Positions 4,697-36,830 of a stretch of DNA of 64,000 bases are shown piece after piece (the stretch's first letter is position 1; each line of letters starts with the position of its first letter). Location: assembly GCF_964213995.1 (NCBI RefSeq), contig NC_135813.1, forward strand, positions 12,524,001 to 12,588,000, written 5' to 3'. Below the pieces are notes generated by a model. That model worked only from the letters and a program-made list of their open reading frames with translations. It was not told the origin of the DNA and searched no databases. The translations under genes and the position numbers were made by a program. Source of the stretch: Mustelus asterias (taxonomy: Eukaryota).

Positions 4697-7105
4697 ATGT
4701 TTTCGATCGGTGATGTTTCAATTTTGGAGGACAATAAGCAACCTGCCTACAAGGTCTTCAAGCCTTGGTGGGACACTTTCATGGATTATCTGACCATTAT
4801 CATGTTGTTTTTGGCTATCTTTGGCTGCAGCATACAGCTTTACATGGATGAGACTTTCTGTTTGCCACATCCCAATAAAGATGGAAAGGCACCCGATGAG
4901 ATAGGTTCAGCCTTGCATAAAACTTCAAGAATATCCGATGACAGTACCAATCCGGAAGCACGTATGAATCCAAATGCACAGCCTTCTGTCCGCCAAGGGA
5001 GGGCTACAAAGTTATACGTTTGGCAGTACTGGTATGTCAATCAAATGTGTTATAGTCAAATTCCATGGTTTACCAGGTTCTTCTCTTATCTAATTCTATT
5101 CCACACAGTGGTCCTGATTATCTGCAGTAACTTCTGTTTCACATATCCGAAAACAAGCTCCAAATTGCAACAGTTCCTTGACATCCTTCAAAAGTGTTTT
5201 CAGTCACCTTGGACATCCAAAGCACTATCAACAGCAGTGTGTGTAGATGCCAGTGAACGGGAAGAAGCCTTGGCATCACAGAAGGCCTCTGACGATGACA
5301 GCGACAACATCAGCATTAAAGAAGATACATCAAATGTGAAACTCGCCACACGCATTCACTCAAACGTGACAGTGTCTGGCTCAACTATGGACAAAAAGGA
5401 TGCAGAACAGGCCAAAGCTTTGTTTGAGAAAGTAAGGAGATTCAGACTCCATGTTGAAGAGAAAGATACCATCTACAAATTATATATTGGCCAAACGTTG
5501 TTCAAAACAATACACTGCTTAATTATTATTGGTTACTTTCCAGCCTATATCTATGTTGTTAACTTTAATAATGTATGTGAACCTAATGCACTAAAATTGG
5601 TTATTTACAAGACTTTCGATTGTACTTATAGCACTGCTCGCTTTGTTGGGAAAATGGCTCTGCTATATTTGGGTTTAGTGATTATCTATTGGATACTCTG
5701 CGTCCACACAATATGTTGGGTCTTCAGGAAATCTCTCAAAATATATTCATTTGAGAAACGAGGTGAGAGCCAGTTCACTGATATCCCTGAGGTGACAAAT
5801 GACTTTGCCTTCTTGTTGCATTTGATTGATCAGTATGACACCCTATATTGCAAGCGTCTTACCGTCTTCCTCTCAGAGGTAAGTGAGAAAAAATTAAAAT
5901 TATTAAGTTTAAATAATGATTGGACAGTGGAGAAGGTGAAGCAACATTTGAAAAAGACTAAGAAGGATCAGTATGAGTTGTACCTCTTCATGCTATCAGG
6001 GATTCCTGAATCGGTCTACGAAGTTACCGACCTGCAGGTCTTAAGGCTGGAGCTTTGTAGTAATGTTAAAATATCCAACAAAATAACCCAACTGGAGCAC
6101 TTGGAAGAAATCTGGCTCTCGCATTGTGTGACCGAAGTTACCCCATCAGCTCTAATGTGGTTGAGGAATCAGCTGAAGAAAGTGGGAGTTAAATTTGTGA
6201 GTCGTGACGAAATCCCAGATTGGGTCTACAAATTGATCCAGCTCAAGGAGCTGTACCTCACTGGAAAGCTGGCCTTTGAGAAAAAAGGTTTGGAACTGGA
6301 ACCCATGAAGGGTCTCCGCTCTCTGAAGGTCCTTTACCTCAAAACAAGTCTCTCTAAGATACCTTCGACTATCATTGACGTTGCATTCCACCTGCTCAAG
6401 CTTTGCATTCATAATGATAAGACCAAGCTCTCGGGATTGAGTATCTTAAAGAAAATGGTAAATCTGACTCAAATTGAACTTCACAACTGTGAATTGGATA
6501 AAATCCCGACTGCCACTTACGCCTTATCCAAACTTCAAGTCTTGGACCTTAAAGGCAACAATCTTACCAAGATTGAAGATATTGTCAACTTGCAATTCCT
6601 GCAGAAGTTAACCTGTTTGAAGTTCTGGTTTAACATGATCAAGACCATTCCTTCAACTATCAATTTAATCAAGAAGCTTGAATATCTTTACTTGTCAAAC
6701 AACCTGATTGAGGTATTACCAAAAGTCCTTTTCACTATTGATAAGCTGCATTACTTGGATATACACCACAACAACATTTCTGTAATTCCCACAGATATCG
6801 GAAATCTGAAAAACTTGTACTATTTGGATTTAAGTTACAATAAAATAGAAACGCTGCCAGAACAGCTTTTCAAATGTAACAAGCTCATGACGCTCAAACT
6901 AAACAGCAACCTGATCTCGTCCATCAGCGGAAAGGTCTCCAAGCTCAGCCAATTATCCCAGCTGGAACTCCAAGGAAACAACCTGGAAAAACTCCCCCTG
7001 GAAATAGGGCAATGCCCTATGCTAAAGCTTAATGGACTTCTCATAGAACTGTATGTTATTGAGTCACTTCCTTTAGAAATAAGGGAAAAGATGGGTGGCA
7101 ATTAG
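4697..7105 (+). CDS. LRRC8 (volume-regulated anion channel subunit) family protein, divergent LRRC8D-like paralogue, single coding exon, 802 aa
   Basis: Intact ORF with LRRC8 hallmarks KPWWD, NQMCY, KCFQSPWTSKALS, DKKDAEQAKALFEKV, DIPEVTNDFAFLLHLIDQYD, four hydrophobic TM segments and a C-terminal LRR array. Splice acceptor ttttgcatttatttcag ends at 4694, two bases before the ATG. Family is certain; paralogue identity is not, so no symbol is given. Confidence 0.95.
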   Translation: MFSIGDVSILEDNKQPAYKVFKPWWDTFMDYLTIIMLFLAIFGCSIQLYMDETFCLPHPNKDGKAPDEIGSALHKTSRISDDSTNPEARMNPNAQPSVRQGRATKLYVWQYWYVNQMCYSQIPWFTRFFSYLILFHTVVLIICSNFCFTYPKTSSKLQQFLDILQKCFQSPWTSKALSTAVCVDASEREEALASQKASDDDSDNISIKEDTSNVKLATRIHSNVTVSGSTMDKKDAEQAKALFEKVRRFRLHVEEKDTIYKLYIGQTLFKTIHCLIIIGYFPAYIYVVNFNNVCEPNALKLVIYKTFDCTYSTARFVGKMALLYLGLVIIYWILCVHTICWVFRKSLKIYSFEKRGESQFTDIPEVTNDFAFLLHLIDQYDTLYCKRLTVFLSEVSEKKLKLLSLNNDWTVEKVKQHLKKTKKDQYELYLFMLSGIPESVYEVTDLQVLRLELCSNVKISNKITQLEHLEEIWLSHCVTEVTPSALMWLRNQLKKVGVKFVSRDEIPDWVYKLIQLKELYLTGKLAFEKKGLELEPMKGLRSLKVLYLKTSLSKIPSTIIDVAFHLLKLCIHNDKTKLSGLSILKKMVNLTQIELHNCELDKIPTATYALSKLQVLDLKGNNLTKIEDIVNLQFLQKLTCLKFWFNMIKTIPSTINLIKKLEYLYLSNNLIEVLPKVLFTIDKLHYLDIHHNNISVIPTDIGNLKNLYYLDLSYNKIETLPEQLFKCNKLMTLKLNSNLISSISGKVSKLSQLSQLELQGNNLEKLPLEIGQCPMLKLNGLLIELYVIESLPLEIREKMGGN

Positions 7106-11016: not shown

Positions 11017-11019
11017 TTT

Positions 11020-13756: not shown

Positions 13757-13906
13757 GTGTAATATTTATTTTCACATGGACACACATACCCTTTTGACCC
13801 ACATCGGTCAACGCAGGGAGTAGCCTGGCGTGTGTCCATGTACATGTGACAGGCAAAGCAGCTTTAATGCTTTCCTTTCTCAGTCTCGTTGTTCGGCCGA
13901 AGGAGA

Positions 13907-18098: not shown

Positions 18099-18596
18099 TT
18101 GCATCATGTGGAAATCTCAGTTGTAAACTGTGATGGGTGGAGAGATAGCATCCATTGTTACCATAGAAATGGCATCATTCTTGGAGCAGGTTCACAGGCT
18201 GTTTTCTCAACTGTAGTCCGGTGCTTCAATCACTGTGAGACACAGCGCAGGACATGCCTCTACATTCCTTGCATTTAGTACCAGTGGGTCTCGGAGCGCT
18301 GTTCATTACCGTGGCATCACAGCTGTCCGTGTGTGCCATCTGACGGAGATTATTGAATAGCAAACTAGAGCACACTCTCATCTGAAAGATCACACCTTGG
18401 AAGTGCTGCACTCACTCAGTACTGCAATTAAGCTATAGGTAAGATTGTGTGCTGAACTCCTGCAGTGAGATTTGGACGCATGACCATCTAACTCAGGACT
18501 GAGAGGGTTATCGCTGAGCTGACCATGAGTACAGAATTTAATGAGCAGGTTCTGATCTAATTTATCTGTTAAAACTTTACTTCCCCTCATCTCCAG

Positions 18597-18755
18597 TTCA
18601 GGAAAGATGGCTTTGTTGCAATTGAAGGGTTTTTCACAGAAGATGAGTGTGACTCTCTGAGAGCACGGATTTCAGACATTATTGATGAGATGGAGGTTCC
18701 CCAAGAACTTCGCACTGAATTCTCAACACAAGAAACGGAGCAGCTTAACAGACAG
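18597..18755 (+). CDS. PHYHD1: PHYHD1 coding exon (FRKDGFVAIEG...EQLNRQ)
   Basis: ctccag| ... CAG|gtttgt; 159 nt; matches PHYHD1 FQQDGFLVLEGF...RTEFSTQEEEQLRAQ. Confidence 0.95.
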
Positions 18756-18897
18756 GTTTGTATTTAGGTGTGTGCGTGAAAGAACTTGGTGTTGGTGTGT
18801 GTTTGTCAGTGATCGCAGTGCGTGTGCCTATAGTGTTTTATGTGCATGACAGGGTGTCTACTTAAGGATGTGATATTTTAATTAATTAAAATGTTTA

Positions 18898-19292
18898 AAT
18901 GTTAGCCCAATCCATCATGCAAACCAGCCTCCCATCCATTGACTCTGTCTACACTTCCCACTGCCTCGGCAAAGCAGCCAGTATAATTAAGGACCCCACG
19001 CACCCCGGACATTCTCTCTTCCACCTTCTTCCGTCGGGGAAAGGATACAAAAGTCTGACGTCACGTACCAACCGACTCAAGAACAGTTTCTTCCCTGCTG
19101 CTATCAGACTTTTGAATGGACCTACCTCGCATTAAGTTGATCTTTCTCTACACCCTAGCGATGACTGTGACACTTCATTCTGCAATCTCTCCTTTCCTTC
19201 TCTATGAACGGTATGCTTTGTCTGTACAGCGCGCAAGAAACTATACTTTTCAATGTATGTTAATAGATGTGACAATAATAAATCAAATCAAA
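18898..19292 (+). mobile_element. Rex1-type LINE 3' fragment
   Basis: [14 protein letters not shown]...KNSFFPAAIRLLN; (aaatc)n tail. Confidence 0.9.
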
Positions 19293-19539
19293 TACCAAAG
19301 GAATGATAACTTGTTTCAGATTGACCCATAACCTTAAATTAAAGCCTTGCATTCTTTAGTTGGGAGGTGTCAGGAAGTGAATTACTCATTTGATTTGATT
19401 TATTATTGGCACTGGTACGAAAGCAAATGTGGTTAATCTCGTTGAAAAGTCCAATGGTTTTGTTGTTTATAAGAACACAAATAACTGAAGGATGAGAATA
19501 TTCCACGCAGACAAGTGAAGCTCGTGCCCCTGGTACTCA

Positions 19540-19861
19540 ATAGAATCCCGACGGTGCAGAAGGAGGCCATTTGGCCCATCGAGTCTGCACTGACAACAAT
19601 CCCACCCAGGTCCTATCCCTGTAACCCCACATATTTACCCTGCTAGTCCCCCCTGACACTAAGGGCAATTTAGCATGGCCAATCAACCTAACCCGCACAT
19701 CTTTGGACTGTGGGAGAAAACCGGAGCATCCGGAGGAAACCCACGCAGAGACGGGGAGAATGTGCAAACTCCACACAGACAGTGACCCGAGGCCGGAATT
19801 GAACTCGGGACCCTGGCCCTGTGAGGCAGCGGTGCTAACCGCTGTGCCACCGTGCTGCCCC
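19540..19861 (-). mobile_element. HE1-type V-SINE
   Basis: Same head, core and tail. Confidence 0.9.
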
Positions 19862-20226
19862 CTGTTATTTTAACTCTCCTGTTGAAGCATCCAACTGGAT
19901 TTTGAAAGCTCCAATTGTTTATAGCACAACTGTTCTCTCCTGGCAGGTTGTTCCAAAGGTTTTTTCAGTCTTTAAGTAAGGAACTTGCTCCTAATATCTG
20001 GTTTCAATTTATTTTTCACTAATGCATGCCATCAAACTCTCCTGACTTTCCATGGCTATTGGAGATTGAGAGGAATCCTTTTTTTTTCTTTGTCTTAATG
20101 CATTCCTGACTGGCCTCAGAAGATGCAGGTGAGCAAGTGTGTTGGTGGTTACATAGCGGATCTCTGCTTCATAACAAATTCTGGGTTGTAGAGATTCTGC
20201 TGTTAATTGTTGCAATTGTTTTTTAG

Positions 20227-20331
<105 letters not shown>

Positions 20332-20902
20332 TAATTAATAAAAGAAACATTTGCATTTATATGACGCCTTTATTATCACAGTGAAGCACTTCACATAATG
20401 AATTATCTTTTTGAAGTACAGTTACTTTTGTTATAAGAGCATAAGAACTAGGAGGAGGCCATCTGACCCCCTCGAGCCTGCACCACCATTCAATAAGATC
20501 ATGGCTGATCTTTTCGTGGGCTCAGCTCCACTTACCCGCCCGCTCACCCTTAATTCCTTTACTGTTCAAACATTTATCTATCCTTGCCTTAAAAACATTC
20601 GATGAGGTAGCTTCCGCTGCTTCACTGGGCAGGGAATTCCACAGATTCACTTCCCTTTAGGTGAAGAAGTTCCTCCTCAACTCAAACCAAAAATTGAGAC
20701 TTTTACACACTTCAAATCCCTGATAAGCAGCAGTCCATTCTGATTGTTGTGATGCACTGTCAGCTTGTGAAAATATAATTGTTCTGATTGTCAATTCTCT
20801 GCTTGTCCTTTCTTTTGAGTCTATTTCTATCTAAAATAATAATCTAACTATTTTCAGAGGCCCTTCCTGCTATTTCAGGAATGCTTTAGTGATCTTAGTT
20901 GA

Positions 20903-22327
20903 TGTTATGACTGGACAGGAAGATTCCAGAATGGAATCTTGGCGCACAAGACTGTAACTTTTACTACTTTTTAATAAAAACATGAAGGAACAGAATCACA
21001 GGACCTCTAATTCGTTTTAACAACAGGGGAAAAAATTAAACATAAAAACGTTGGATTATAATATAATACTCCTTTACTCCCCCCACACACACATTTTAAT
21101 TAACACAATTACAAAGTATATTGTAAGTTACAATGTTCTCATTAACACAACATACCTTTAAACACACAGATTGGTTGTGGTCAAATACACACACTCCACT
21201 CTGAACCCAAGTTAGTATCTGGGTATTTCTCCTCAGAGTCTTACCAGATGATTGTCACATGAGAGTTTTCAAACTCCATTCCCAAAATATGCTTTAAAAT
21301 CTTCATTCATAATAATACTTTCCTTTAGTGGTTTGTATTCCAAGATCAGATCCACGTTTTCTAAATGATACTTTTAAGAAAAGCTTCTCCTCCACTTTCA
21401 ACAGTAAATCCAGTCCAGGATTTACATCGACACCTTTAGGATTTTTTTGGCTTGACTGCTGTACAAGCTGTTCACAATTGATTTAACTCTCAATTTCCGG
21501 ACTCTAATAAAATGGTATCAAATGTTTCATTTACCTCTGAAATCTGCTATCCTACCTTAAATTTGGTACTACAATTGTCTCTTTAAGTCAGTAAAAAGTC
21601 TTGCAACACGAAGTTAACTTTAACTCAGATCACTTTCTTCCTTGCATTTTTCTGTTAAATATCTTGGTCTCTGTTCTTTTAACTCGAGGCATCTTAGACA
21701 TTCCTTTTGTTCCAATTCTCTGGTTATATGAATTGTAATTTGTCCCTTAGGAAGCCTGCATCTTTACAACTCCCTTGTCCTGTCTAGCTTCTCCTGGCAG
21801 AATTGAGAGAGGTTCATTCCCTGTTTATTTGATTTGATTTATTGTTGTCACATGTGTTGGGATACAGTGAAAAGTATTGTTTCTTGTGCATTATACAGTC
21901 AAAACATACCGTTCATAGAGTACGTAGGGGAGAAGAAAAGGATAGGATGCAGGACAGCGTGTTGCAGTTGCAGGTAGGGTGAAAAGAGTTGGAGTTCAGT
22001 TTTAAGAGCATAAAACGTTAGTAAAAGATGGAATTGGGGGATATGCTAAACTTAAAAAGCTTTTCTATCTTACAAGGGCTCCAGTTGCAAAGCAACAACT
22101 GCTACTACTATTTATTCTTCATACTGTAACCCTCTCTAAGCACAATAGAATCACAGTTGGAATTGAAACCAATCCCCAAACATACAAACACCTTTGTTCA
22201 GCATGAATCTAACTATAGGTTTTACCCTTCCAGGGACAGAAATATTAAACACACTCAGAATTATACCTTAATTCTAATGTCTACCAATACAAATATAAAT
22301 CCCTTAAAACAACCTTTGTTTTCTTGC
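20903..22327 (-). mobile_element. Probable solo LTR with nested Rex1 tail; diverged inverted partial copy at 22375-22565
   Basis: Ends ...cataaca on the minus strand; second copy begins tgttaggaaaacaa and matches about 21800-22160 in reverse; non-coding and AT-rich. Confidence 0.45.
21824..21985 (-). mobile_element. Rex1-type 3' tail inserted in an LTR-like sequence
   Basis: Matches the tails at 3780-3920 and 32541-32690. Confidence 0.75.
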
Positions 22328-23202
22328 TTCTGAGATGTTGCAAAATGTCCAGCATGTTTGGAGAGATAATAAAATTGTTAGGAAAACAATGGTTGTGATT
22401 CTATTGGGCTTAGAGAGGGTTACAGCATGAAGAATAGAAGTAGCAGTCATTGCTTAGCAACTGGAGCCCTTGTAAGTTAGAAAAGCTTTTAAGTTTTAGT
22501 TTTAGCTGGTTATATTGCATTTGGAGACAGGACACCAGGGAGCAAACCTCTCTCAACTCTGCCACCTAATTGGATGGTTCTACTAAAAAAGCCATCTCAG
22601 GCATGGTGGATTGAATGATCTCATTCTGTGTTGCATCATTCTATGATTTTCCCATAGCTGTGACTGCACTTCACTAAGATATTAAAGGCACCATATAAAT
22701 GCAAGTTCATGCCTTCTGACAATGTAGAACGTGTATCAATATTTTGGAATGAAACTGCTCCTTTTTTTAGATGTCATTTGTCCTCATTCTTAGTTCTGCG
22801 GGTGAGAGTTGATGGATTTCCTCCACTATGCCATTCTGTAATAATTACCTAGAAAGTGACAAATGACAGATGAGGGATGCCTCTTCCCCTCTCCCCATGG
22901 TCTCCAATTGGATAGCACTCTGATATACCATGGCTTAAGATCAGGGACCCAGCAAGGAATAATAGCTGTCAACACTTGTGCAGTGCGTTGAACCTCCACC
23001 ATGGCAACAAACATCTGTTCTTTATGGTACAATTATTGTTTTCTTTTCCTGCCCTAAAACTGCTGACTCCTGTTGGGATACCGTTCCAAGGACACTGGCT
23101 GTCCTCTAGTACATTGCTCATTCTTCATGTCTGGACTTTGACAGTGAATGATGTATTTAGTGGCAAGGATTTACAGTGGATATCAGTCACCTTTTCATTT
23201 AA

Positions 23203-23508
23203 TATAGAATCCCTACAGTGTAGAAGGAGGCCATTTGGCCCATCGAAGCTGCACTGACCGCAATCTCACCCAGGCCGTATTCCTACATATTTACCCTGCT
23301 ACTCCCCCTGATGCTAGGATCAATTTAGCATGGCCAATCAACCTAACCCACACATCTTTAGAGTGTGGGAGGAAACCGGAGCACCCGGAGGAAACCCACG
23401 CAGACACAGGGAGAACGTGCAGACTCCACACAGACAGTGTGACCTGAGACCAGAATTGAACCCAGGTCTCTGGTGCTGTGAGGCAGCAGTGCTAACCACT
23501 GTGCCGCT
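23203..23508 (-). mobile_element. HE1-type V-SINE
   Basis: Same head, core and tail. Confidence 0.9.
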
Positions 23509-23806
23509 CCGTGTATATTCACTGTTAAAGGGAATCACTGCGCAGCGTTCATGAGTGGAGACTTTGCTGTTTATTTTCTGTTCTCTCCCTCCATAACCCA
23601 GGGGCAAGAAGGCTATTTGTGCCCAGGCTAACAACACAGATAAGGTTCAGACCTGGGACCTTGTAAATGGCTGAACTACTCACCAGCAAGTGTATCTGCC
23701 AACTGAGCAACTGAGAAGTCTAAAATCCTTAGGTGAATTAGAAAGATGTCTTACTGAGCCAGGGCAGATCAGGTATCCATTCATTCTCATTTTCTTCTTT
23801 GTTCAG

Positions 23807-23854
23807 GTGACTTTCTTATACCAAAGGAGAAATCCTTAAATAAAATTGGACACG
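23807..23854 (+). CDS. PHYHD1: PHYHD1 coding exon (DFLIPKEKSLNKIGH)
   Basis: gttcag| ... G|gtaagg; 48 nt; conserved NKIGH. Confidence 0.95.
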
Positions 23855-24351
23855 GTAAGGTTACTGTTTCACACTACTTGGGAACAAAGAGAATGGTTCC
23901 ATATTTTCTTATTCTGTCTGAAGAAGCATCAACACATTCTTCTGAGGGGGCCATCAGCATTCACTCCAAGCTTTAGTGAAATTATTAGATTCCAAATGTC
24001 AGCAAAATGCTCATAAAGCAGACGGAAGCATTGAGTGAATTGAAAAGCCTTTTGTATCTCCTCAACAGGCTGGTTTTTAACCTGCTCATTGGGCCTTCTG
24101 TTTATCAGGGAAGGAGCTGTTGAAGGTTTTTCCGCTCCTTAACCCAGACAAACTGAGACTGATTGAAATAATCCCATTGCAGCAAAACTGAAACCAAATG
24201 TCTCCGCACAGAGCAATAAAGTCTGTTAGAAAACCCGACTGATGTTCTGTGCGAGAATGTTCCAACCTGAAACACTAGTTTCATATGGTGTTTTCTTTTG
24301 GATATTAGCAAGAAACATTCACGGAAACAGTGAGAACTCAGACCTCTCTTT

Positions 24352-24692
24352 CATAGAACCATAGAGTAGAATCATAAAATCCCTACAGTGCAGGTGAAGG
24401 CCATTCAGCCCATCGAGTCTGCACTGACCACAATCCCATGCAGGGCCCATTCCCGTAACCCCACATATTTACCCTGCTGATCCCCTTACACTAGGGTCAA
24501 TTTAACATGGCCAATCAACCTAACCTGCACATCTTTGGCCTGTGGGAGGAAACCGGAGCACCCGGAGGAAACCCATGCAGACACAGGGAGAATGTGCAAA
24601 CTCCTCACAGACAGTGACCCAAGCCAGGAATCGAACCCGGGTCCCTGGTGCTGTGAGGCAGCAGTGTTAACCACTGTGCCACCATGCTGCCC
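24352..24692 (-). mobile_element. HE1-type V-SINE
   Basis: Same head, core and tail. Confidence 0.9.
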
Positions 24693-24919
24693 ATTTTTAT
24701 CATTATTGAGTGATTATTATGCTTTTGTTTAAAAATTAAGCTTCTACAAGCACCTTACGTCAGCTGGGACCCTGTATTGTAATGAAAAGAAATCTGATTG
24801 ATGGGACAGTAAGATTATCCTCCAAGTGGGTCCCACCGGTCATTAATTCTAGTGTTTCATTTTCTGCAGGGTATCTCTCTTGCTCAGAGACTCACTCTTA
24901 ATATAATTCTTCTCCACAG

Positions 24920-24975
24920 CTCTTCATGCTTTGGAACCTACATTCAAAAATCTCACACATTCACTCAAAGTTCAG
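24920..24975 (+). CDS. PHYHD1: PHYHD1 coding exon (LHALEPTFKNLTHSLKVQ)
   Basis: ccacag| ... CAG|gtgggt; 56 nt; phase agrees with both neighbours. Confidence 0.95.
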
Positions 24976-25509
24976 GTGGGTATATCTTGAGTGTACGATA
25001 AGTGTGATGGAGTGTCTCTGTAATTACTAGCATATGGGAATCAGCACAGCAGTCATGCCTGATAAAGGTGATCATGTTACATGAGACTGAAATGGCTCGT
25101 TTGGAGAGCCAGTGCAGACACGACGGGCCAAATGGCCTCCTTCTGCGCCGTAACAATTCTGTGATTTCAAATTGACTGGGAACCTGGTAGAAGGCAATAA
25201 AACTTTTGCTGAATTCAATTTTAGCAACACCTTCTCATCCCCAACCCTACAAACAGTTTCTTTTCGGTACGTCATCCAAAAGATCTCCAGTTAATTATTG
25301 CAAAGAGCCAATTCATTGTATAAGTGCCATTCTTAGGACACCCATTTCAATCCCCTTCTGGCTGCCCTCTGAAGCCGAACCAGACCATTTGTGGCCTCAA
25401 TACTCTGTTTGGCCCTGAGCTGAGATTCCGAGCCCATATCCTCTCCATCACCAAGATGGACCATTTTCATCTCTGTCACCTGTTCGTGTCCTGTCCTTGT
25501 ATGAACCTA

Positions 25510-25960
25510 TAAATTAGGAGCAGGAGTAGGCCATTCAGCCCCTCAAGCTTGCTCTGCCATTCAATAAGATCATGGCTGATCTGATGGTGGCCTCAATTCC
25601 ACATTCCGCCTACTCCTGATAACCTTTGACTCCCTTGTTAGTCAAGAATCTATTTACCTTTGCCTTAAACTTACTCAATGATCCTGCTGTCCAGTTAAAA
25701 GAGTTCCAAAGATTCCTGATCCTCTGAGAGAAAAGCATTGTTCTCATCTCGTCTTAATTGGAAGGGCCCTCATTTTTAATCTGAGTCCCCTAGTTCTGGT
25801 CTCTCTCACAATGGGAAACATCTTTTCAGCACCCGCCTTGTCAAATCCTCTCAGGATCCTATATATTTCGATAAGATCACCTCTCAGGCTGCTAAACTCT
25901 AATGGATACGAGCCCAGCCTGGCCCAGCCTTTCCTCAAAAGATAACCCCCCCTACCCCAG
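25510..25960 (-). mobile_element. CR1 LINE 3' fragment
   Basis: LRGDLIEIYRILRGFDK; CR1 tail at 25510. Confidence 0.8.
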
Positions 25961-26564
25961 GTTTCACCTGTGGCTGCAATCTGGATCGAGGCTTTTGTTA
26001 ACTTCAGATGAGAACGCACTGATGGCCAGTGTCTACCTTCCACCCTCTGTAGACTTGCTGCCTATGTCCTCTCTTGCAGTCAGCCCTGTGCCCACTGATC
26101 TACATTGGTTCCTGGTCCAGCACTGTCTCCAATTTAAAATTCCCATTCTTGTGTTCAAATCCCCCTTGATGCAAAGACCAATTCACAGAATGAAGTACAA
26201 GTGTGCAGTGGGGGCAAGAACTGTAGACTCACTTTTGTGTAATGGGGGTTACCAGAAATATTTTTATGTGGATCATAAAGAGGCGTTGCCCCTCGTTATC
26301 TCTGTAACCTCCTCCAGTCCCACAACCCTCCATATTTTTGATATTTACTGCATTTTTAAATGTTGCTTCTGAAGTTGGTAAAGATATCATTGGGACCTAT
26401 GTTTGTGATTTTGATTGTCTAAATGCGCGTCCTTGGCTTAAGCTTCAGAACAGACATCCACAAAGTCGATATGGACAATGAAGACTATTTGCTCCATTCT
26501 ACATGATCTACTTAAAAATATTTCTAGTAACCCCTGTTATAATCCAGGTCAGAAACTCCAAAGT

Positions 26565-27306
26565 GTTTTATGAAATCTGCCTGGATCATGAGTTTTGCAA
26601 TTTGAATTTGGCTAGGGTAAGCGTGAGATGTTTCACTTCAGGCATGATTCAAATGACCCACCCGGGAGCTTTTATCAAACAAAGTTTATTTAAGAATACA
26701 GTTAATATATAGCAATAACTTTTACCAATTACAAACAAGAAAAAAAATCATGATATTGTAGAAAGCTTAACAACTAAATGCAATGTTCCAACCAAACAAA
26801 CTTCCCTATAAACATACACCTGCCACAGGTTTAGCACAGAAAACAAGGATGCTCACGTGATGCTGGAACTTAATCCTTTGGTTGGAGAATTGAAACTCTG
26901 TCTTCCCAAACTTGTAACTTCCAGCAGATCTGGAGGTAGAGATGATGCCACTGCTGGCTTCTAGCTTTTAACCAATGAACCACCGCAAGAGACAGAATTC
27001 TCACTCCAGGAAGGCAAGAAAGAGAGAGAAAACCTGCCGGCGTCCAGCCTGAAGTAGAACACCTTCTAACTAAAACAGCACCCAGTGGGCCAAAACTGAA
27101 AGTGAAAGAACTCCTACCACCTGACCTGTCAATCATTCTTTCTCCAGCAATTCAGGGTCATAAAAATCCCGGACACAACATGAGGCCCAGAATAAAAATA
27201 AACAAAACCCCATTTAAGCAGCAATAAAAGAGACTTCTCATCAGACAGTTCAGGGCTTGCTTATATATGATTAAAAATACATTTCTTAAAGATACACTAG
27301 TGTCAC
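26565..27306 (-). mobile_element. Probable solo LTR
   Basis: Minus strand begins tgtgaca, has AATAAA near its end (tttatt about 26685) and LTR-like composition; no second copy in the window. Confidence 0.4.
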
Positions 27307-27593
27307 ACCCCCATTACAGAAAAATGATTCTCCAGTTTTTGGCCCCCACTCAGACTTGTACTTCATTCTGTGAATTGGTCATTGCATCAAAGCTTCTTGA
27401 CTTTAGTTAGTTTGAACCTGAACCCTTTGTCCTATTGCTAATTTCACTTAATTATCTAGATTTGCTTTTTCTATGCCTTTTAATATTGACTATGCCCATG
27501 CAAGATACCTTCTTCATGCCACCTTTTAAAGCTGAAAATGTTGATTTATCTGGCCTTTAATCAGTCCTCTGATGCTGATGATCAGCCTCACAG

Positions 27594-27885
27594 ATGGCAC
27601 AGTGGTTAGCACTGCTGCCTCACAGCGTCGGGGACCCGGGTTCAATTCCCGGCTTGGGCCACTGTCTGTGTGGAGTTTGCACGTTCTCCCCGTGTCTGCG
27701 TGGGTTTCCTCCGGGTGCTCCGGTTTCCTCCCACAAGCGGAAAAATGTGCTGGTTAGGTGGATTGGCCGTGCTAAATTCTCCCTTAGTGTACCCGAACAG
27801 GAGTGTGACGACTAGGGGATTTACACAGTAACTTCATTGCAGTGTTAATGTAAGCCTACTTGTGACTAATAAATAAGCTTTAAAA
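27594..27885 (+). mobile_element. V-SINE with alternative tail
   Basis: HE1-like head and core, then ...cacagtaacttcattgcagtgttaatgtaagcctacttgtgactaataaa. Confidence 0.88.
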
Positions 27886-28114
27886 CTTTAAAATTGTCCA
27901 TGTATCTTGACTGCGTTGGTTTTATATCCATATGAGTGAAGGAAAAAAAATGACCAAAGGCTTCCTGTTGCTGTTACTGCCAGTGAGCTATGTGAGTGCA
28001 GCTTTAAGAGGTTTGAGTGCAGGCAATTCGGCCACCCTCATTGCTCAACGTAGGTCTAAAGAAAGACTAGAAAGTATATATCCACTGTTAAATGAATCTC
28101 TCTCCGTGTGACAG

Positions 28115-28177
28115 GAGGTCGCCCAGAAGTTAGAACTAAAGGAACCTGTCATTGTGCAGAGTATGTATATCTTCAAG
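28115..28177 (+). CDS. PHYHD1: PHYHD1 coding exon (EVAQKLELKEPVIVQSMYIFK)
   Basis: gacag| ... AAG|gtatgt; 63 nt; conserved QSMYIFK. Confidence 0.95.
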
Positions 28178-28359
28178 GTATGTTGGAAATTGTTTATCTG
28201 CTTTCACTCTCAGTGACTCGGTCGGACTGGAAGCTGAAATTTAGGCCATTTAGAAATCATAATACAATCAAGCAGTCAACATGGTTTCATGAAAGGGAAG
28301 CTGTGTTTGACAAATTTATTAGAGTTGTTTGAAGATGTAACAAGCAGAGTGGATAAAAA

Positions 28360-28715
28360 CAATGGAATACAGAAAATAGGAGCAGGAGTAGACCATTCAG
28401 CCCTTCGAGCCTGCTCCGCCATTCAATATGATCATGCCTGATCCTGTATCTCAACACCATACTCCAGCACTCTCCCCATCACCCTTGACGCCTTTAGAGT
28501 CTAAAAATCTATCTATTTCCATTTTAAATATATTCACTGATTTGGCCTCCACAGCCTTCTGTGGAAGAGAACTCCACAGACTCACCACACTCCAAGTGAA
28601 GTCTCCCCTCATCTCAGTCCTAAATGGCCTAACTTGTATCCTGAGACTGTGACCCTTTGTTCTGTACCCCAGCCAGAGGAAACAACATCCCTGCATCCAG
28701 CCCTGTCTGAATTTT
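28360..28715 (-). mobile_element. CR1 LINE 3' fragment
   Basis: RTKGHSLRI...VVSLWSSLPQKAVEA; CR1 tail. Confidence 0.82.
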
Positions 28716-28745
28716 AAGTTTCAAGCAGCGTCATTGAAGGGGAAA

Positions 28746-29170
28746 TCATAGAATCAATAGAATGCCGAAGAGGCCATTCAGCCCATCGAGTCTGCACCAA
28801 CTCTCTGACAGAGTATCTTATCCAGCCCCTCTCGCCTGCCCTATTGCCATAACCCCACACATTTCCCACAGCTAATCCATCTAACGTATTTATCTTGGGA
28901 CACTAAGGTGCAATTTAACATGGCCAATCCACCTAACCTGCATATCTTTGGACTGTGAAGGTCATAATGAACCACATGACAACCCAGTAGTTCGTGATCA
29001 TAGAATCCCTACAGTGCAGAAGGAGGCCAATCGGCCCATCAAGTCTGCACTGACCACAATCCCACTCAGGCCCTATTCTCATAACCCCATGCATTTACTC
29101 TAGCTAGTCCCCCTGACACTAAGGGGCAATTTAACATGGCCAATCAACCTAACCCACACATCTTTGGACA
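28746..29170 (-). mobile_element. Two 5'-truncated HE1-type SINE 3' halves
   Basis: 28746-28957 and 28998-29170 contain only the tail and end of the core. Confidence 0.8.
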
Positions 29171-29498
29171 TCATTAATGAATTATATTCCAGATTGATTA
29201 ATCAATTGAATTTTAAATTTTCCCAGTTGTCTTGGTGGGATTTGAATTCATGACCCCGGGGCATTAGTTAGCCACTTTATTACTACAGTGCTGGATTACT
29301 GATCCAGTAACATTACCACTATGTTATCGTCCATCTAATTACTGAAATGGACCTACTAGTAAAATACTGAAGGCAAAAACATGGAAAACTCTAAGAGCTA
29401 GCAGGGGGGAAAGCTATAAATTTGTGAATGAAAATGAGAAGGTGGCAAATGGTCATCCTCCTCTGTCTATCTTATCTATTATCAGCTTGTTGGGTCCA

Positions 29499-29738
29499 TC
29501 TAAAGGCGTCAAGGGTGATGGGGAGAGTGCTGGAGTATGGTGTTGAGATACAGGATCAGGCATGATCATATTGAATGGCGGAGCAGGCTCGAAGGGCTGA
29601 ATGGTCTACTCCTGCTCCTATTTTCTATATTCCAATGTTTTTATCCACTCTGCTTGTTACATCTTCAAACAACTCTAATAAATTTGTCAAACACAACTTC
29701 CCTTTCATGAAGCCATGTTGACTGCTTGATTGTATTAT
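29499..29738 (-). repeat. Inverted 240-bp copy of 28259-28498 flanked by a 14-bp direct repeat
   Basis: Four mismatches by eye; ttgttgggtccatc at 29487-29500 and 29743-29756. Confidence 0.92.
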
Positions 29739-30197
29739 AAGTTTGTTGGGTCCATCCATTCGTTTGAACAGATGAGGGGACAGCACTGATACAAGTTTTA
29801 AAATGGTTTTCTTTCATTGAACAGAACTTAAAACATTAACATGACAAGCAAAAAGAAAAAGCAGACTTGGAGACTGGCTTCTACTGCCAGCTCCTTAACT
29901 GAATGGATCTCAAAAACAAAGTGAAAAACACACACTAAAATCCAATCTATGTTTCAACTGTTATCTCGTTATCTCCGACTTAGAAAAACAATCCTTGCAG
30001 CTGTGGTTATGTTGCTGTTTGCCTGCATTGTGTACCCTTCAGGAATGCAGGCAGTTTTTCGCTAATCTTTAGCCTTCTGATTCTTCTTGTAGTCAAGTTA
30101 TCAAAGATAGTTGCATAGGCAGAAATATCTTAAAATGAAGTATTTGCATAGACTGAAGCAAGCAGGGCTAAATATACATGGGGGGGCGGGGGGCGGG

Positions 30198-31075
30198 GGG
30201 GGTGATTCTCCCAAAAAAGTTCTAAGTGCTGAATTTGTGGGAAAACTGGTGTAAATCACAATTTTATTTTTCAGTGGGAGTTCACACTCGAATCGGCCAC
30301 ACTCTGTGCAGTGCAAAGGTCACAATCGTGAATATCATTAATAGCCCGGGGGGCGGAGCTTATTCATGCCAGAGTCTGACATTCACGGATCTCTGCACAT
30401 GCGCAGTGGCCTCGAACTGTCAGTCTGTAGCTCGCTGGCCTGCTTGATCATGGCCAGCCTGGGCCCCTCGCAATGCTGCCCCCCAACCCCCATCCCCGGC
30501 CAAATCGTGGCCCCCATGAGCATTCGCGGTCCAGTCCCGACCCCCCCCCCGCCCCCGGCAGTGATTATTCCCCCACCCACGGGAGGCAGACCCCCCAGCA
30601 GACACCCCCACCCCTCTGCAAACCCCCCATCACAGAAAGCAGACATCCCCCAGCAGACCAACTGCCCCCCCCCTCCACCCGCCACCCCCCCCCCGCCCCC
30701 CCCCCCCGCCCCCCCCGCCCCCCCCCCCCCCCCCCCCCCGCCCCTCCCCCCCCCCCCCCCCCGCCCCTCCCCCCCCCCGCTAGTTCCCCGAAAGTGGGGA
30801 GCTAGTCTGAACCTTGCTGGCGTGAAATTGCACTGATGGGGTGGGAGATGCCAAGGGGCTGGGGAATTCAGTCCTGGGCCTGATAATCACATTTAAATAA
30901 GATTAAAAATAGATTTAAATCACTTACCAGCAAGCTGTTCCCGTTGGTTTCCAGCGTGGTCCTGACTACGCCGGATATCTGGCACTGGGAAATGCGGGTG
31001 CGTCGGAAACGCATGTGTGAATCCTGCGAATCGTCCGACACGCGATTCTCCCAGCGGGATGGGAGCATCGTCCCC
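30198..31075. mobile_element. Non-autonomous DNA transposon with about 16-bp terminal inverted repeats and an internal poly-C tract
   Basis: Left gggggtgattctccca, right tgggagcatcgtcccc; CpG-rich interior; no credible ORF. Confidence 0.6.
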
Positions 31076-31607
31076 AGGATCTCTCAAAGCTACAGAGCAA
31101 AAGTGTTTGAGTACCTTATCTGTTTAATGTTTTGTTGGTGTTAATTAGTAGCAGCTCAGAGCGCTGACCCTCTCTAATATTTAACACTTGATGCAACACT
31201 AGATTTTTTTATAACATCCTTTGCCATGCTGGTTTCACCTCCAGGGTTTATACTAATGAAGTCACTCACCTACTTAATGACTACTGCTTGGGATGATCAT
31301 GTATCTGTTATGGACATGCTAAGAATTTGTTTTTTTTAATCTTCACACACACTTACTCCCCTTTGGGGAATAGTGAAGAGATGAAGGAAGGATTTCTGGG
31401 CTAATAATCAGCCCATTGAATCATATCATGAATGTTCCTTCCATGGTCAATGGGTCCTAGAGCTTCTGGTCCAGACGGAGGGCACTGCCACTGTGTCACA
31501 AGGCCTCTTTTGCTAAAATTATTAGCCATGTTACTGAACTTCTTCAGTTCAATCCCGTGTTAATTATCATGTACTAATTGGGTTGAATGATTTGTCTCAG
31601 GATAGTT

Positions 31608-31807
31608 NNNNNNNNNNNNNNNNNNNNNNNNNNNNNNNNNNNNNNNNNNNNNNNNNNNNNNNNNNNNNNNNNNNNNNNNNNNNNNNNNNNNNNNNNNNNN
31701 NNNNNNNNNNNNNNNNNNNNNNNNNNNNNNNNNNNNNNNNNNNNNNNNNNNNNNNNNNNNNNNNNNNNNNNNNNNNNNNNNNNNNNNNNNNNNNNNNNNN
31801 NNNNNNN
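31608..31807. other. Assembly gap (200 N)
   Basis: Exactly 200 n, typical of a fixed-size scaffolding gap of unknown true length. Confidence 0.99.
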
Positions 31808-31909
31808 GGCGAAAGGCAAGAAAGTGGAGTTAAACCCATAATCATGTCAACCATGACCTGTTTGAATGGCAGAGCAGGCTCGTGAAGCCAAATGAAGCAA
31901 AATATTTAA

Positions 31910-32213
31910 TCACAGAATCCTACAATGCAGAAGGAGACCATTCGGCCCATCAAGTCTGCATCGACCACAATCCCACCCAGACCCTATACCCACAACCCTA
32001 GCTAGTCCCCCTGACACTAAGGGACAATTTTAGCATGGCCAGTCCCCCCAACCTGCTCATCTTTGGGCTGTGGAAGGAAACCAGAGCACCCCGGAGAAAC
32101 CCACGCAGACACGAGGAGAATGTGCAAACTCCACACAGACAGTGACCCAATCCCGGGAATTGAACCCTGGCGCTGTGAGACAGCAGTGCTAACCCACTGT
32201 GCCACCGTGCCAC
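31910..32213 (-). mobile_element. HE1-type V-SINE
   Basis: Same head, core and tail. Confidence 0.9.
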
Positions 32214-32540
32214 CTCTTTCAGATGTAATGTTTCCTTGCACTATGTAAATGTTTTGGGTTCAGTGCAGTTTTTAAATTAAAAGGTATGCAATATTATCAT
32301 GTGTTCATGAAATATTATAAAAGCCAAGTGTATGTGTTGATTTGCCAGTGTTTTATGGTTTGGAGTTGAAGATTACAGGCAGCCTGAGAATAGGCAATTT
32401 GCCTGGAACTTGCCTTAGTGGCTCTCCCGATGTAGTTGACTAAGTTTATGTAGTGAGCTCCTAGGCAGTACGAACCAGGTTGGATTGTATTCTACCCCCG
32501 ACCTGTGCTCATAGAATCACAGAACAGTTGCAGCACAGAA

Positions 32541-34385
32541 TTTGATTTGATTTGATTTATTATTGTCACATGTATTGTATACAGTGAAAAGTAATGTTTC
32601 TTGCACGCTATACAGACAAAACATAGCGTTTATAGAGAAGGAAGGGAAAGAGTGCAGAATGTAGTGTTACAGTCATAGCTAGGGTGTAGAGAAAGATCAA
32701 CGTAATGCAAGGAAGGTCCATTCAAAAGTCTGATGACAGCAGGGAAGGAGCTGTTCTTGAGTCGGTTGGTGTGTGACCTCAGACTTTTGTATCTTTTTCT
32801 TGATGGAAGAAGGTGGAAGAGGGTATGTCTGGGATGCGTGGGGTCCTTGATTATGCTGGCTGCTTTTCCGAGACAGCAGAAAGTATAGACGGAGTCAATG
32901 GATGGGAGGCTGGTTTGTGTGATTGACTGAGCTTCATTCATGACCCTTTGTAGTTTCTTGTGGTCTTGGACAGAGCAGGTGTCATACCAAGCTGCGATAC
33001 AACCAGAGAGAATGCTTTCTGTGGTGCATCTGTAAAGGTTGGTGAGAATTGTAGCGGACATGCCAAATTTCCTTAGCTTCTTGAGAAAGTAGAGGCATTG
33101 TTGGGCTTTCTTAACCGTAGCGTCGGTATGGAGGGACCAGGTGATCTGGACACCTAGAAACTTGAAGCTTTCAACCATTTCCACTCCTTCATGTCCTCCA
33201 CTACGCTTCCTGAATTTGATGACTATCTCCTTCATTTTACTGACATTGAGGGAGAGATTATTGTTGTTACACCAGTTCACCAGCTTCTCTATTTCTTTCC
33301 TGTACTCCGTCTCATCATTGTTTGAGATCCAATCCACTACGGTGGTGTCGTCAGCAAACTTGAAAATCGAGTTGGAGGGGAATCTGACCACACAGTCATA
33401 GGTGTATAAGGAGTATAGTGAGGGGTTGAGAACACAGCCTTGTGGGGCACTGGTGTTGAGGATGATCGTGGAGGAGGTGTTGTTGCCTATCCTTACTGAT
33501 TGCGGTCTGTGGGTTAGGAAGTCTAGGATCCAGTCACAGAGGGAGGAGCCAAACCCTAGGCCACAGAGTTTGGAGATGATTTTTGTGGGAATAATGGTGT
33601 TGAAGGCTGAGCTGTAGTCAATAAATAGGAGTCTGACGTAGGTGTGTTTGTTATCCGGGTGTTCCAGGGTTGAGTGTAGGACCAGGGAGATGGCATCTGC
33701 TGTGAACCTGTTGCAACGATAGGTGAGCTGTAGTGGATCTAGGCAATCTGGGAGGCTGGAATTGATTTGTCCCATGACTAACCTGTTGAAGCACTTCATA
33801 AGGTGAGGTGGGCAGCACGATGACACAGTGGTTAGCACTGCTGCCTCACAGCGCCAGGGACCTGGGTTCAATTCCTGGCTTGGATCACTGGCTGTGTGGA
33901 GTCTGCACCTTCTCCCCGTGTCTGCATGGGTTTCCTCTGGGTGCTCTGGTTTCCTCCTACCATCTGAAAGACGTGCTAGTTAGGTGCATTGGCTATGCTA
34001 AATTCTCCCTCAGTGTACCCGAACAGGCGGTGGAGTGTGGCGACTAGGAGAATTTCACAGTAACTACATTGCAGTGTTAATGTAAGCCTACTTGTGACAC
34101 ATAAATAAACTTTAAACTAATGATGGAAGTCAGAGCCACCGGATGATAATAATTAAGGTAAGCTGCCTGGCTTTTCTATGGTACAGGGATGACGGTTGTC
34201 TTCTTGAAGCAGATAGGGACCTCAGATTGGTGTAAAAAGAGGTTAAAGATGCCTGCGAATACCCCCGCTAGCTGATTCACGCAGGATCTAAGTTCTCGTC
34301 CAGGTACCCCTTCCGGGCCAGTCGCTTTCCGTAGGTTGACTTCCGAGAAGGCTGATCTGACGTCTGTGATGGTGACCTTGTATAC
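32541..34385 (-). mobile_element. Rex1/Babar-type LINE (RT and 3' end), interrupted by a SINE at about 33808-34120
   Basis: [60 protein letters not shown]; tail aataaatcaaatcaaatc. Confidence 0.92.
33808..34120 (+). mobile_element. V-SINE with alternative tail, inserted in Rex1
   Basis: Same alternative tail; Rex1 sequence resumes on both sides. Confidence 0.88.
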
Positions 34386-34787
34386 TGGTTTGGCCAGGCT
34401 TCCGGGGCAGAAGGTGTGCTTTGGCTGACCTCTTGCTCAAAATGGCCATTCTGCCCCTCGTGTCCGGTTGTCCTTCCGCTTGCTCTTGTAACTGGATAAT
34501 AGTAAAAGGAATATCACCAATGTCGTTCCTCACCAGAATCGTGACTGATTCTTATGTAATGATTTTGTCTTTCCTCAGCAATAATCTTATTGTTTGCTCA
34601 GTTACTTTTGCTCCTCTGTCCCTTTTGTTGTAAACAACGGGAGGGATATGAGGTCACATTGGTGATGTAGTGAGTGATGGGTTTGCCAGCACTTAGAGGA
34701 AATGGTGGGGGTGTGTGCTTTTCCCATCTCCTCCAGGTCGATCGACCGAGCCTCAACTTCTTGCTTCTTGTAGGTGGAACTTGATGA

Positions 34788-35051
<264 letters not shown>

Positions 35052-36112
35052 TGACATTGTCCATTAGTTATGAAATCTCAAATCTCAGCTGTGGTAAAAT
35101 TATGTTTTTTTTCCATTTGTTCCTGCGATTTGGGTGTCTCTGGCAAGGCTAGCATTTGCTCCCAACCCCTAATTGCCCTTGAATAAGGTGGTGAGCTGCC
35201 TTCTTGAACTGCAAGCTGTTCATGTGGTGTAGGTACAGTTAGTTCCAGGATTTTGACCCAGCAACAGTGAAAGAATGGCGATATAGTTCCAAGTCAGGAT
35301 GGTGGGGGACTTGGAGGAGAACTTTTGTTCCTATGTGACTGCTGCCCTTGACCTTCTGGTGGGTTGGAGGTTGTGGGTTTGGAAGATGCTGTCCAAGAAG
35401 CCTTGCTGAGTTGCTGCAGTGCATCTTAAGCAGGTGGTACACTGGATGGAAGTCATTGCATAGGCAGAGTTGCAAGATGGGAAGATAGAGGCACCTCAAG
35501 CCATTCTCTTGTTTTTTATTATTAATTAATTTAAACATTTATTAATTAATGAGGGACATGGGCATTGCTGGCTGGCCTGCATCCCTACCTGCCCTTGAAA
35601 CTGAGTGACCTACTAGGCCATTTCAGAGGGCAGGTGAGAGTCAACCACATTGCTGTGGCTCTGGAGTCACATGTAGGCCCGACCAAGTAAAGATGGCAGA
35701 TTTCCTTCCCTAAAGAACATTCGTGAACCAGATAGTTTTTTCCGACAATCGTTTCATGGTCATCAGTAGATTCTTAATTCCAGATTTAAAAAAAAATTGA
35801 ATTCAAATTCCACCAGCTGCTGCAGCGGGATTTGAACCCGGGTCCCCAGAACATTAGCTGAGTTTCTGGATTAATAATCTAGCGATAAGACCACTAGGCC
35901 TCTCTACAGACCAGACAGTAGGTCTCCTTCTTGCTTCCTCATCTATGGGAAGTATGGTGCATGGGTAGAAAATTTGTGAAGAAACCCTCATAACTGGAAA
36001 ATCCAAATAAAACATGATACAAAAATGTGCATTATTAGTGATTGAAAATCTAAGACACTGCATAAAGTCTGTTTATGCCCATTATACAGCACTTTGTTTT
36101 TCTGCCTGACAG

Positions 36113-36229
36113 TTGGTATTACACGGAGGATGGTACGAGCCCCAAAGGGAGAATATCCTCTGATTCAGTTTACCGGAAAGGAGCGTGATTATCCAGATGA
36201 TGAATTCATTCCTGTTCCAGTTAAAAAAG
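36113..36229 (+). CDS. PHYHD1: PHYHD1 coding exon (GITRRMVRAPKG...PVPVKK)
   Basis: tgacag| ... G|gtagat; 117 nt. Confidence 0.95.
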
Positions 36230-36319
36230 GTAGATGGCCATTTGTATTACATTGGGATGATAATGGACATTGATGGCGACGCTTTGTATTGTATTGAATG
36301 CCCCCCCCCCCCCCCCCCA

Positions 36320-36830
36320 AACCCCCCTACAGTGCAAGGGGGGGGGGGGCATTCGGCCCATCCAGTTTGCAGTGACCATCCGAAAGAGCATCTTACCCAA
36401 GAAGCCCCATCCCCATAATCCGGTGCATTCAGCATGGCCAATCCAGCTAACATGCACATCTTTGGACTGTGGGAGGAAACCAGAGCATCCAGAGGAAACC
36501 CACGCAGACACGAGGAGAATGTCCAAATTCACACAGTCAGTGACCCGAGACCGGAATTGAACCCAAATCCCTGGCGCTGTGAGGCAGCAGTGCTAACCAC
36601 TGTGCCACCCCATGTTTATCCGTGTATATTCACTGTTAAAAAACAATCACTGCACAGCGATCCTAAGTGGAGACTTTTGTGTTTTTTTTTGTTCTCTCCC
36701 TCCTTAACCCTGGGGCATGAAGGCTATTTGTGCCCAAGCTCCACATAGACAGTCACCCGAGGGTGGAATCAAACCCGGGTCCCTGGCGCTGTGAGGCAGC
36801 AGTGCTAACCACTGTGCCACCATGCCACCC
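36320..36830 (-). mobile_element. Composite HE1-type SINE: extra head (36740-36830), about 120 bp of captured sequence, then a full SINE
   Basis: Two SINE heads separated by sequence shared with 23511-23629. Confidence 0.82.

What the first reader, a model, noticed from the sequence alone, without database searches (positions are those of the whole stretch)
4997..5050. Rewritten pore-constriction motif: Y107-V108-W109 replaces DRH/DFQ
Seen: GRATKLYVWQYWYVNQMC aligns without gaps to LRRC8D GRKTNLDFQQYVFINQMC. Established: LRRC8A D102-R103-H104 forms the narrowest extracellular ring and R103 governs anion selectivity and DCPIB/ATP block. Here the conserved Asp is Tyr, the filter residue is Val and the next residue is Trp. 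Inference: an uncharged aromatic constriction with changed selectivity, possibly suited to neutral or methylamine osmolytes; the TMAO idea is speculation.
Basis: partly seen in the sequence, partly recalled or inferred. Interest (0 to 1): 0.7.

Follow-up and report, generated by a model that had tools for sequence, protein, structure and literature searches.

The report
Shark-lineage VRAC subunit, rebuilt pore mouth
This is an intact extra gene for a volume-regulated anion channel (LRRC8) subunit, found so far only in sharks, rays and chimaeras, whose outer pore mouth has swapped a conserved aspartate and glutamine for aromatic residues; it likely joins the core subunit LRRC8A to form a swelling-activated osmolyte channel with altered permeation, but a role in TMAO release is untested.

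Summary
Y107-V108-W109 of an intact 802-aa LRRC8 gene aligns without gaps to LRRC8D D-F-Q and LRRC8A D102-R103-H104.

The gene is not LRRC8D. It is one of a tandem pair (here X, with neighbour Y) between LRRC8A and PHYHD1. The pair forms a clade sister to LRRC8D and its D-like paralogue, and was found only in cartilaginous fishes.

Across 21 species W109 is fixed (21/21) and position 107 is always Tyr, His or Phe. The filter residue varies (Ile 9, Asn 8, Val 2, Thr 1, Tyr 1), so YVW itself is not conserved. Trp at that site occurs in 0 of 307 other LRRC8 rows. X lost 5 of 11 shared pore-lining residues, while the equally fast-evolving Y lost 0 of 11.

An uncharged filter residue is ordinary for non-A/B subunits. 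In published structures only that residue faces the pore axis, so the aromatics likely reshape the lid and the inter-subunit cleft, not the ring itself.

Best reading: an accessory LRRC8A partner with a retuned outer pore (0.55). TMAO selectivity has no support. Expression and assembly are untested.

The parts
4697..7105 (+). LRRC8 paralogue 'X' (my label), 802 aa, whole coding sequence in one exon
   Evidence: ORF; Pfam PF12534 E 6e-104 plus LRR domains; AlphaFold2 model matches LRRC8A/C/D structures
5015..5023 (+). Y107-V108-W109, equivalent to LRRC8A D102-R103-H104 at the tip of helix EL1H
   Evidence: 21 orthologues
5009..5011 (+). K105, at the LRRC8A D100 position (inactivation site); charge reversed relative to LRRC8A
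   Evidence: alignment; role of D100 from passages
4850..4852 (+). E52, at the LRRC8A K51 position; Glu, Asp or Asn in all 21 orthologues, never basic
   Evidence: role of K51 from PMC13596092
4829..4843 (+). End of TM1: S45 (T44 position) and Y49 (T48 lipid-gate position; Tyr is shared with neighbour Y)
   Evidence: role of T48 from PMC12795811
4712..4720 (+). N-terminal inner-filter residues D6 and S8 (LRRC8A E6/R8; LRRC8D E6/A8)
   Evidence: roles from PMC10480491 and PMC12795811
4693..4694 (+). Likely splice-acceptor AG two bases before the ATG, after a pyrimidine tract; same layout as the D, D-like and Y genes of this genome
   Evidence: sequence; start contexts printed; splicing itself not shown
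18594..39460 (+). PHYHD1-like exons (six pieces), the downstream synteny marker
   Evidence: tblastn with the PhyH part of P0127, best E 1e-18; Pfam PF05721 on P0127

Best explanation
The window encodes an intact LRRC8D-related channel subunit, found only in cartilaginous fishes, that likely assembles with LRRC8A into a swelling-activated channel whose outer mouth is rebuilt and is predicted to pass organic osmolytes with altered selectivity, inactivation and drug block. Shown: the full fold, the retained extracellular cysteines, the clade, its place beside LRRC8A, and the fixed changes (D102 to Tyr/His/Phe, Q/H104 to Trp, K51 to Glu/Asp/Asn, T44 to Ser; Lys at the D100 site in 16 of 21). Inferred: like other non-A subunits it needs LRRC8A, since it shares only 3 of 45 residues with the variable part of the LRRC8A intracellular loop. 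In a mixed hexamer the ring would hold Arg from LRRC8A and a small uncharged residue (Val/Ile/Asn) from X, predicted to be at least as open as with LRRC8C Leu. Tyr/His107 would replace the acidic lid above the ring. Trp109 would fill the inter-subunit cleft used by DCPIB. The N terminus lacks R8, as in LRRC8D, which would favour D-like passage of neutral and zwitterionic solutes.
For: Intact ORF in 21 species from chimaera to sharks and rays. W109 in 21/21; aromatic or His at 107 in 21/21; Trp at that site in 0 of 307 other rows. 5 of 11 shared pore-lining positions lost in all X rows against a background of 78 of 406 (p 0.041). Neighbour Y has the same background (76 of 407) but lost 0 of 11. 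2 of the 4 shared EL1H-tip positions are among 15 radical losses (p 0.007). The 51/100 pair reads K/D in 7 of 8 LRRC8A rows, E/K or D/K in 16 of 21 X rows, and N/Q or N/H in 4 stingray-type rows, so both charges change together. X+Y group with the D and D-like clade (SH-aLRT 100); grouping with LRRC8A is rejected (p-AU 6e-57). Published: D102A slowed iodide influx (10.1101/331207); K98/D100 set inactivation; LRRC8D confers passage of neutral and zwitterionic solutes.
Against: No RNA evidence was obtained, and assembly and function are untested. The gene evolves fast (62% identity shark to chimaera, vs 87% for D and 94% for A), and 356 of 799 columns are invariant in the clade, so a fixed Trp is not remarkable alone. 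Counting all losses, the tip enrichment is not significant (p 0.17). Two of the five pore losses are conservative (E6D, T44S). The pore set was compiled from papers after I had seen the alignment. The filter residue varies. Loss of the Asp is not unique: HRQ occurs in some frog LRRC8B and VYQ in a perch D-like protein (16 of 307 rows non-acidic). The collection's gene model for this locus (P0003) starts at M50 and lacks the N terminus and most of TM1.
Confidence: 0.55

Rival explanations
1. The motif is a by-product of fast, relaxed evolution in a duplicate gene. The subunit works much like LRRC8C/D, and the changes have little effect on permeation.
For: 62% identity shark to chimaera; 78 of 406 family-shared positions lost across the whole protein; five different residues at the filter site; tip enrichment p 0.17 when all losses are counted; other lineages also lost the Asp.
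Against: Neighbour Y evolves as fast and keeps D-x-Q and all 11 shared pore positions. After the change, W109 and the aromatic 107 stayed fixed in 21 of 21 species. D102A impairs LRRC8A function.
Confidence: 0.23
2. The changes mainly alter assembly or gating. X would be a damping or partner-restricted subunit (as LRRC8A/B channels carry little transport), possibly pairing with its tandem neighbour Y.
For: D102 and H104 border the inter-subunit cleft (passages). D102A lowers activity. X also lost otherwise conserved non-pore residues: W143, K145, H155, E175, E179 and P126 positions. LRRC8A/B channels lack significant transport (PMC12182595).
Against: The residue facing the axis is small and uncharged, not occluding. 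The overall fold and the extracellular cysteines are retained. Changes extend to pore-lining sites K51, T44 and E6.
Confidence: 0.15
3. One reading: the aromatic residues form a cage that selects TMAO or other methylamine osmolytes.
For: The clade was found only in cartilaginous fishes, which use urea and TMAO as osmolytes (recalled). Aromatic side chains bind trimethylammonium groups (recalled). Positions 107, 109 and 112 are mostly aromatic.
Against: The axis-facing residue is non-aromatic in 20 of 21 species. A heteromer would keep Arg103 from LRRC8A. These fishes also keep LRRC8D and a D-like gene, and LRRC8D already passes neutral osmolytes. No paper linking LRRC8 and TMAO transport surfaced in the listings.
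Confidence: 0.07

Closest known systems
LRRC8D (VRAC accessory subunit)
   Same: Nearest characterised relative: same clade side, 47% identity, single coding exon, uncharged filter residue, no R8 in the N terminus. Databases label the orthologues 'LRRC8D-like'.
   Different: Not its orthologue: true LRRC8D lies on another contig with B and C. D-F/Y-Q becomes Y/H/F-x-W, Q51 becomes E/D/N, T48 becomes Y, and W183 becomes C/Y. It evolves several times faster.
LRRC8A (SWELL1, obligatory subunit)
   Same: Same fold (Foldseek E 1e-59 to 7xzh). Neighbouring gene about 46 kb upstream on the same contig.
   Different: No R103 and no R8; 3 of 45 identities in the variable intracellular loop; two coding exons in A versus one here; clade with A rejected.
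LRRC8C and LRRC8E
   Same: Aliphatic filter residue (Leu) comparable to the Val/Ile of shark X.
   Different: They keep D-L-Q and K51 and have a separate first coding exon; different branch of the tree.
Tandem neighbour 'Y' (G000 locus L018; P0013-P0017, P0019-P0022)
   Same: Sister clade, also found only in cartilaginous fishes; shares Tyr at the T48 site and the fast rate.
   Different: Keeps D-x-Q and all 11 shared pore positions.

Membership tests
LRRC8 family | Pannexin-like four-helix pore domain (PF12534) | tested here: met
   E 6.1e-104, residues 1-339
LRRC8 family | C-terminal leucine-rich repeat domain | tested here: met
   PF13855/PF12799/PF23598; model LRR superposes on LRRC8C LRR, TMt 0.94
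LRRC8 family | Four extracellular cysteines (LRRC8A C54, C113, C295, C310; their pairing is recalled) | tested here: met
   C55, C118, C294 and C309 present in 11 of 11 X rows
VRAC accessory subunit | Co-assembles with LRRC8A | not tested
VRAC accessory subunit | Swelling-activated anion and osmolyte flux | not testable with these tools
   Needs electrophysiology or flux assays
LRRC8D orthologue | Groups with LRRC8D in the tree | tested here: not met
   X+Y are sister to D plus D-like; this genome's own D nests with chimaera D
LRRC8D orthologue | Lies in the B-C-D tandem cluster | tested here: not met
   Lies between LRRC8A and PHYHD1 on C13; B, C and D are on C8
LRRC8D orthologue | D/E-F/Y-Q filter motif | tested here: not met
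   0 of 21 X rows
LRRC8A orthologue | R103, conserved intracellular loop, clade with A | tested here: not met
   (p-AU 6e-57)

The most novel reading that the evidence does not exclude
Cartilaginous fishes kept a copy of the LRRC8D-type gene beside LRRC8A that bony vertebrates lost, duplicated it before chimaeras and sharks split, and rebuilt one copy's outer pore into a dedicated exit route for their methylamine and other organic osmolytes.
Probability: 0.1. Interest if true: 0.75.

Novelty: new variant of a known kind. Interest (0 to 1): 0.45.

Why it matters
What sets substrate choice in VRAC heteromers is still argued from five mammalian subunits. This gene is a natural variant kept across all cartilaginous fish lineages sampled. 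It changes the lid (D102), the cleft (H104) and the K51/D100 charges together, and it comes with a built-in control: an equally divergent tandem sister that kept them. It makes the roles of these residues in permeation, inactivation and DCPIB block directly testable. It also offers a candidate for organic osmolyte release in sharks and rays. The genome studied has 10 LRRC8 genes, twice the mammalian set, and databases hide two of them under the label 'LRRC8D-like'.

Tried and rejected
Expression: no RNA holder was listed among 6 runs. The best contigs of the four runs laid continue across the presumed intron-exon boundary, as DNA would. This is no evidence either way. The supplement of the catshark transcriptome paper PMC11979771 could not be read and may hold tissue expression of the orthologue.

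No coordinates were returned, so no pore radius or K51/D100 distance was computed. In the monomer model helix EL1H starts at residue 105, two residues earlier than in LRRC8A, but confidence there is low (block pLDDT 64), so I do not use it.

Selection: from the 40 of 154 difference rows shown for the laid runs, codons 1-111 of organism B give 19 amino-acid-changing and 2 silent codons (pN 0.090, pS 0.030, Fisher p 0.13). A locally misaligned stretch near codons 88-91 was left out. Not significant; no full orthologue DNA was available for dN/dS.

Assembly error or frameshift: rejected. LRRC8D or LRRC8A orthology: rejected.

Literature: searches for LRRC8 with 'cartilaginous fish' (5 papers), 'chondrichth' (1), 'elasmobranch' (0), 'LRRC8F' (0), paralog/synteny/shark (20 of 794 listed), trimethylamine (11), TMAO efflux in elasmobranchs (4) and K51+D100 (0) showed no description of this clade. 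The library lacks most subscription papers. The 2012 LRRC8 evolution paper by Abascal and Zardoya was not read.

Earlier scan findings: none returned. The ORF at 50443-52116 gave no Pfam or PDB hit.

Full report
OBSERVATION. The stretch 4997-5050 reads GRATKLYVWQYWYVNQMC, inside one uninterrupted ORF of 802 codons at 4697-7105. It aligns without gaps to LRRC8D and LRRC8C chains of the PDB. In multiple alignments Y107, V108 and W109 fall on LRRC8A D102, R103 and H104. Three runs of organism A cover the motif with no differing base; two of them are one sample and may be the assembly's source. A second organism reads Y-I-W. Among 345 aligned family rows, 26 lacked part of the triplet and 12 belong to this clade. 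Of the other 307, 291 have an acid first and none has Trp third. These rows come from ranked hit lists and are weighted to LRRC8A and D.

WHAT THE GENE IS. It has the LRRC8 pore domain and LRR domain and the four extracellular cysteines. Its AlphaFold2 model (mean pLDDT 76, pTM 0.55) matches LRRC8A, C and D structures. The genome G000 holds 10 LRRC8 genes (16 matches): A, a neighbour I call Y, and this gene X on C13; B, C, D and one more on C8; three on C19. The labels X, Y, x, y and G are mine, and F is a recalled name. Downstream in the window lie PHYHD1-like exons. A sheep gene model fuses LRRC8A directly to a PhyH domain (P0127), an indirect hint that mammals have nothing in between.

PHYLOGENY AND DISTRIBUTION. 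A 72-row FastTree and a 31-row IQ-TREE put X and Y together (SH-aLRT 100) as sister to LRRC8D plus its D-like paralogue. Holding X+Y with LRRC8A is rejected (p-AU 6e-57). The single coding exon, shared with D, D-like and Y but not with A, C or E, agrees. Each of X and Y contains a chimaera sequence, so the duplication predates the chimaera-shark split. The tandem seems conserved: the chimaera proteins have consecutive accessions and the same longest-contig length as its LRRC8A, and an electric-ray gene model fuses a Y-like and an X protein. All named members are cartilaginous fishes. In a profile search (best 120 of 928 listed), members score 1121-1517 bits and other single proteins at most 1060; two longer bony-vertebrate gene models scored within or above that range, at only 42-45% identity. 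None of 23 further 50%-cluster representatives that I placed in the tree joined the clade. Absence from bony vertebrates is therefore likely but not proven, since a member could hide inside a cluster or below the listed ranks. An origin from whole-genome duplication with loss in bony vertebrates is inference.

CONSERVATION OF THE MOTIF. In 21 species, position 107 is Tyr 16, His 4, Phe 1; position 108 is Ile 9, Asn 8, Val 2, Thr 1, Tyr 1; position 109 is Trp 21. So YVW is not conserved, but aromatic-x-Trp is. The gene evolves fast (62% identity shark to chimaera; Y 58%, D 87%, A 94%), and 356 of 799 columns are invariant, so fixation alone says little. The better test compares X with Y on positions shared by the other non-A/B classes. 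X lost 78 of 406 and Y 76 of 407. Of 11 shared pore-lining positions named in the papers read, X lost 5 (E6, T44, K51, D102, Q104; p 0.041) and Y none. At the EL1H tip, 2 of 4 shared positions are among 15 radical losses (p 0.007), but p is 0.17 when all losses count. The pore set was chosen after I had seen the alignment, and two losses are conservative, so this is modest evidence. The 51/100 pair changes jointly: K/D in 7 of 8 A rows, E/K or D/K in 16 of 21 X rows, N/Q or N/H in 4 stingray-type rows, D/S in the chimaera. That the two residues touch is untested. Loss of the Asp alone is not unique: 16 of 307 other rows lack it, including frog LRRC8B HRQ and perch VYQ.

HOW IT LIKELY WORKS. 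From published structures: R103 forms the constriction, D102 lies above it like a lid, and D102A slowed iodide influx (10.1101/331207; passages and section 8). The filter is one residue per subunit: R103, L105 or F143/144 (PMC12795811, PMC13586245, PMC7229184; passages). D102/L101 and H104-Y106 border an inter-subunit cleft used by DCPIB, block does not require R103 in heteromers, and K51 may help anchor it (PMC8831520, PMC13596092; passages). N-terminal E6/R8 form a second filter (PMC10480491; passages). K98/D100 set inactivation, non-A subunits need LRRC8A, and LRRC8D admits neutral and zwitterionic solutes (PMC12182595, PMC6028502; passages). X lacks R103, R8 and the LRRC8A loop sequence (3 of 45 identities), so it is likely an accessory subunit. 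In a mixed hexamer its small filter residue would sit among Arg from LRRC8A, Tyr/His107 would replace the acidic lid, Trp109 would fill the cleft, and the reversed 52/105 charges would change inactivation. The predicted result is a D-like osmolyte-passing channel with retuned permeation, gating and block (0.55). All functional steps are inferred.

RIVALS. Relaxed drift with little functional effect (0.23) fits the fast rate and variable filter residue, but not the contrast with Y. A damping or partner-restricted subunit (0.15) fits the cleft location and the loss of other conserved residues such as W143 and H155. A TMAO-selective aromatic cage (0.07) rests only on the taxonomic range and on recalled physiology; the axis-facing residue is non-aromatic in 20 of 21 species.

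OPEN POINTS. Expression is unknown, and a catshark transcriptome supplement that may answer it could not be read (PMC11979771; listing only). The collection's model for this locus starts at M50, and one catshark model at about M37, while 20 of 21 rows include the N terminus. Assembly with LRRC8A and pore radius were not computed.

NOVELTY. The proteins are in databases as 'LRRC8D-like'. Eight paper searches showed no description of the clade or its pore, but the library lacks most subscription papers and the main LRRC8 evolution paper was not read. PMC6994961 (passages) uses only chimaera LRRC8A as an outgroup. Verdict: new variant of a known kind, interest 0.45.

Noticed in passing
L018:1091-3568 (+), about 13 kb upstream of the window: Tandem sister gene Y, also found only in cartilaginous fishes. 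It keeps D-x-Q but shares Tyr at the T48 lipid-gate site with X and has a C-terminal extension.
   Followed up: partly
L023:3244-5604 (-) and L026:5925-8261 (+): Two further LRRC8 genes (motifs DRE and DVQ) form a separate deep clade with amphibian and lamprey proteins labelled C-like or A-like. One has Arg at the filter site. No mammalian member was among the rows placed in the trees.
   Followed up: partly
window 5135-5137: C147 replaces LRRC8A W143, which is invariant in all other rows; it is Cys or Tyr in all 21 X orthologues.
   Followed up: no
window 4697-4846: The collection's protein for this locus (P0003) starts at M50. An acceptor-like pyrimidine tract and AG lie near 4830, so a shorter splice form lacking the N terminus and most of TM1 is possible, or the model is wrong.
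   Followed up: no
window 4697-5029: Between the window and organism B, 19 amino-acid-changing versus 2 silent codons in the first 111 codons (p 0.13); a weak hint of fast or positive selection in the N-terminal part.
   Followed up: partly
window 50443-52116 (-): Intronless 557-codon membrane-protein frame that looks like dolichol kinase (recalled; no Pfam or PDB hit), matching the recalled mammalian order LRRC8A-PHYHD1-DOLK.
   Followed up: partly
P0240, P0232, P0229 (frog LRRC8B) and P0247 (perch D-like): Independent losses of the D102 aspartate (HRQ, VYQ) in other accessory subunits.
   Followed up: no
window 9447-17359, 32630-33979, 47647-48306, 61403-62173: Long frames resembling LINE reverse transcriptase and endonuclease fragments (recalled family features).
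   Followed up: no
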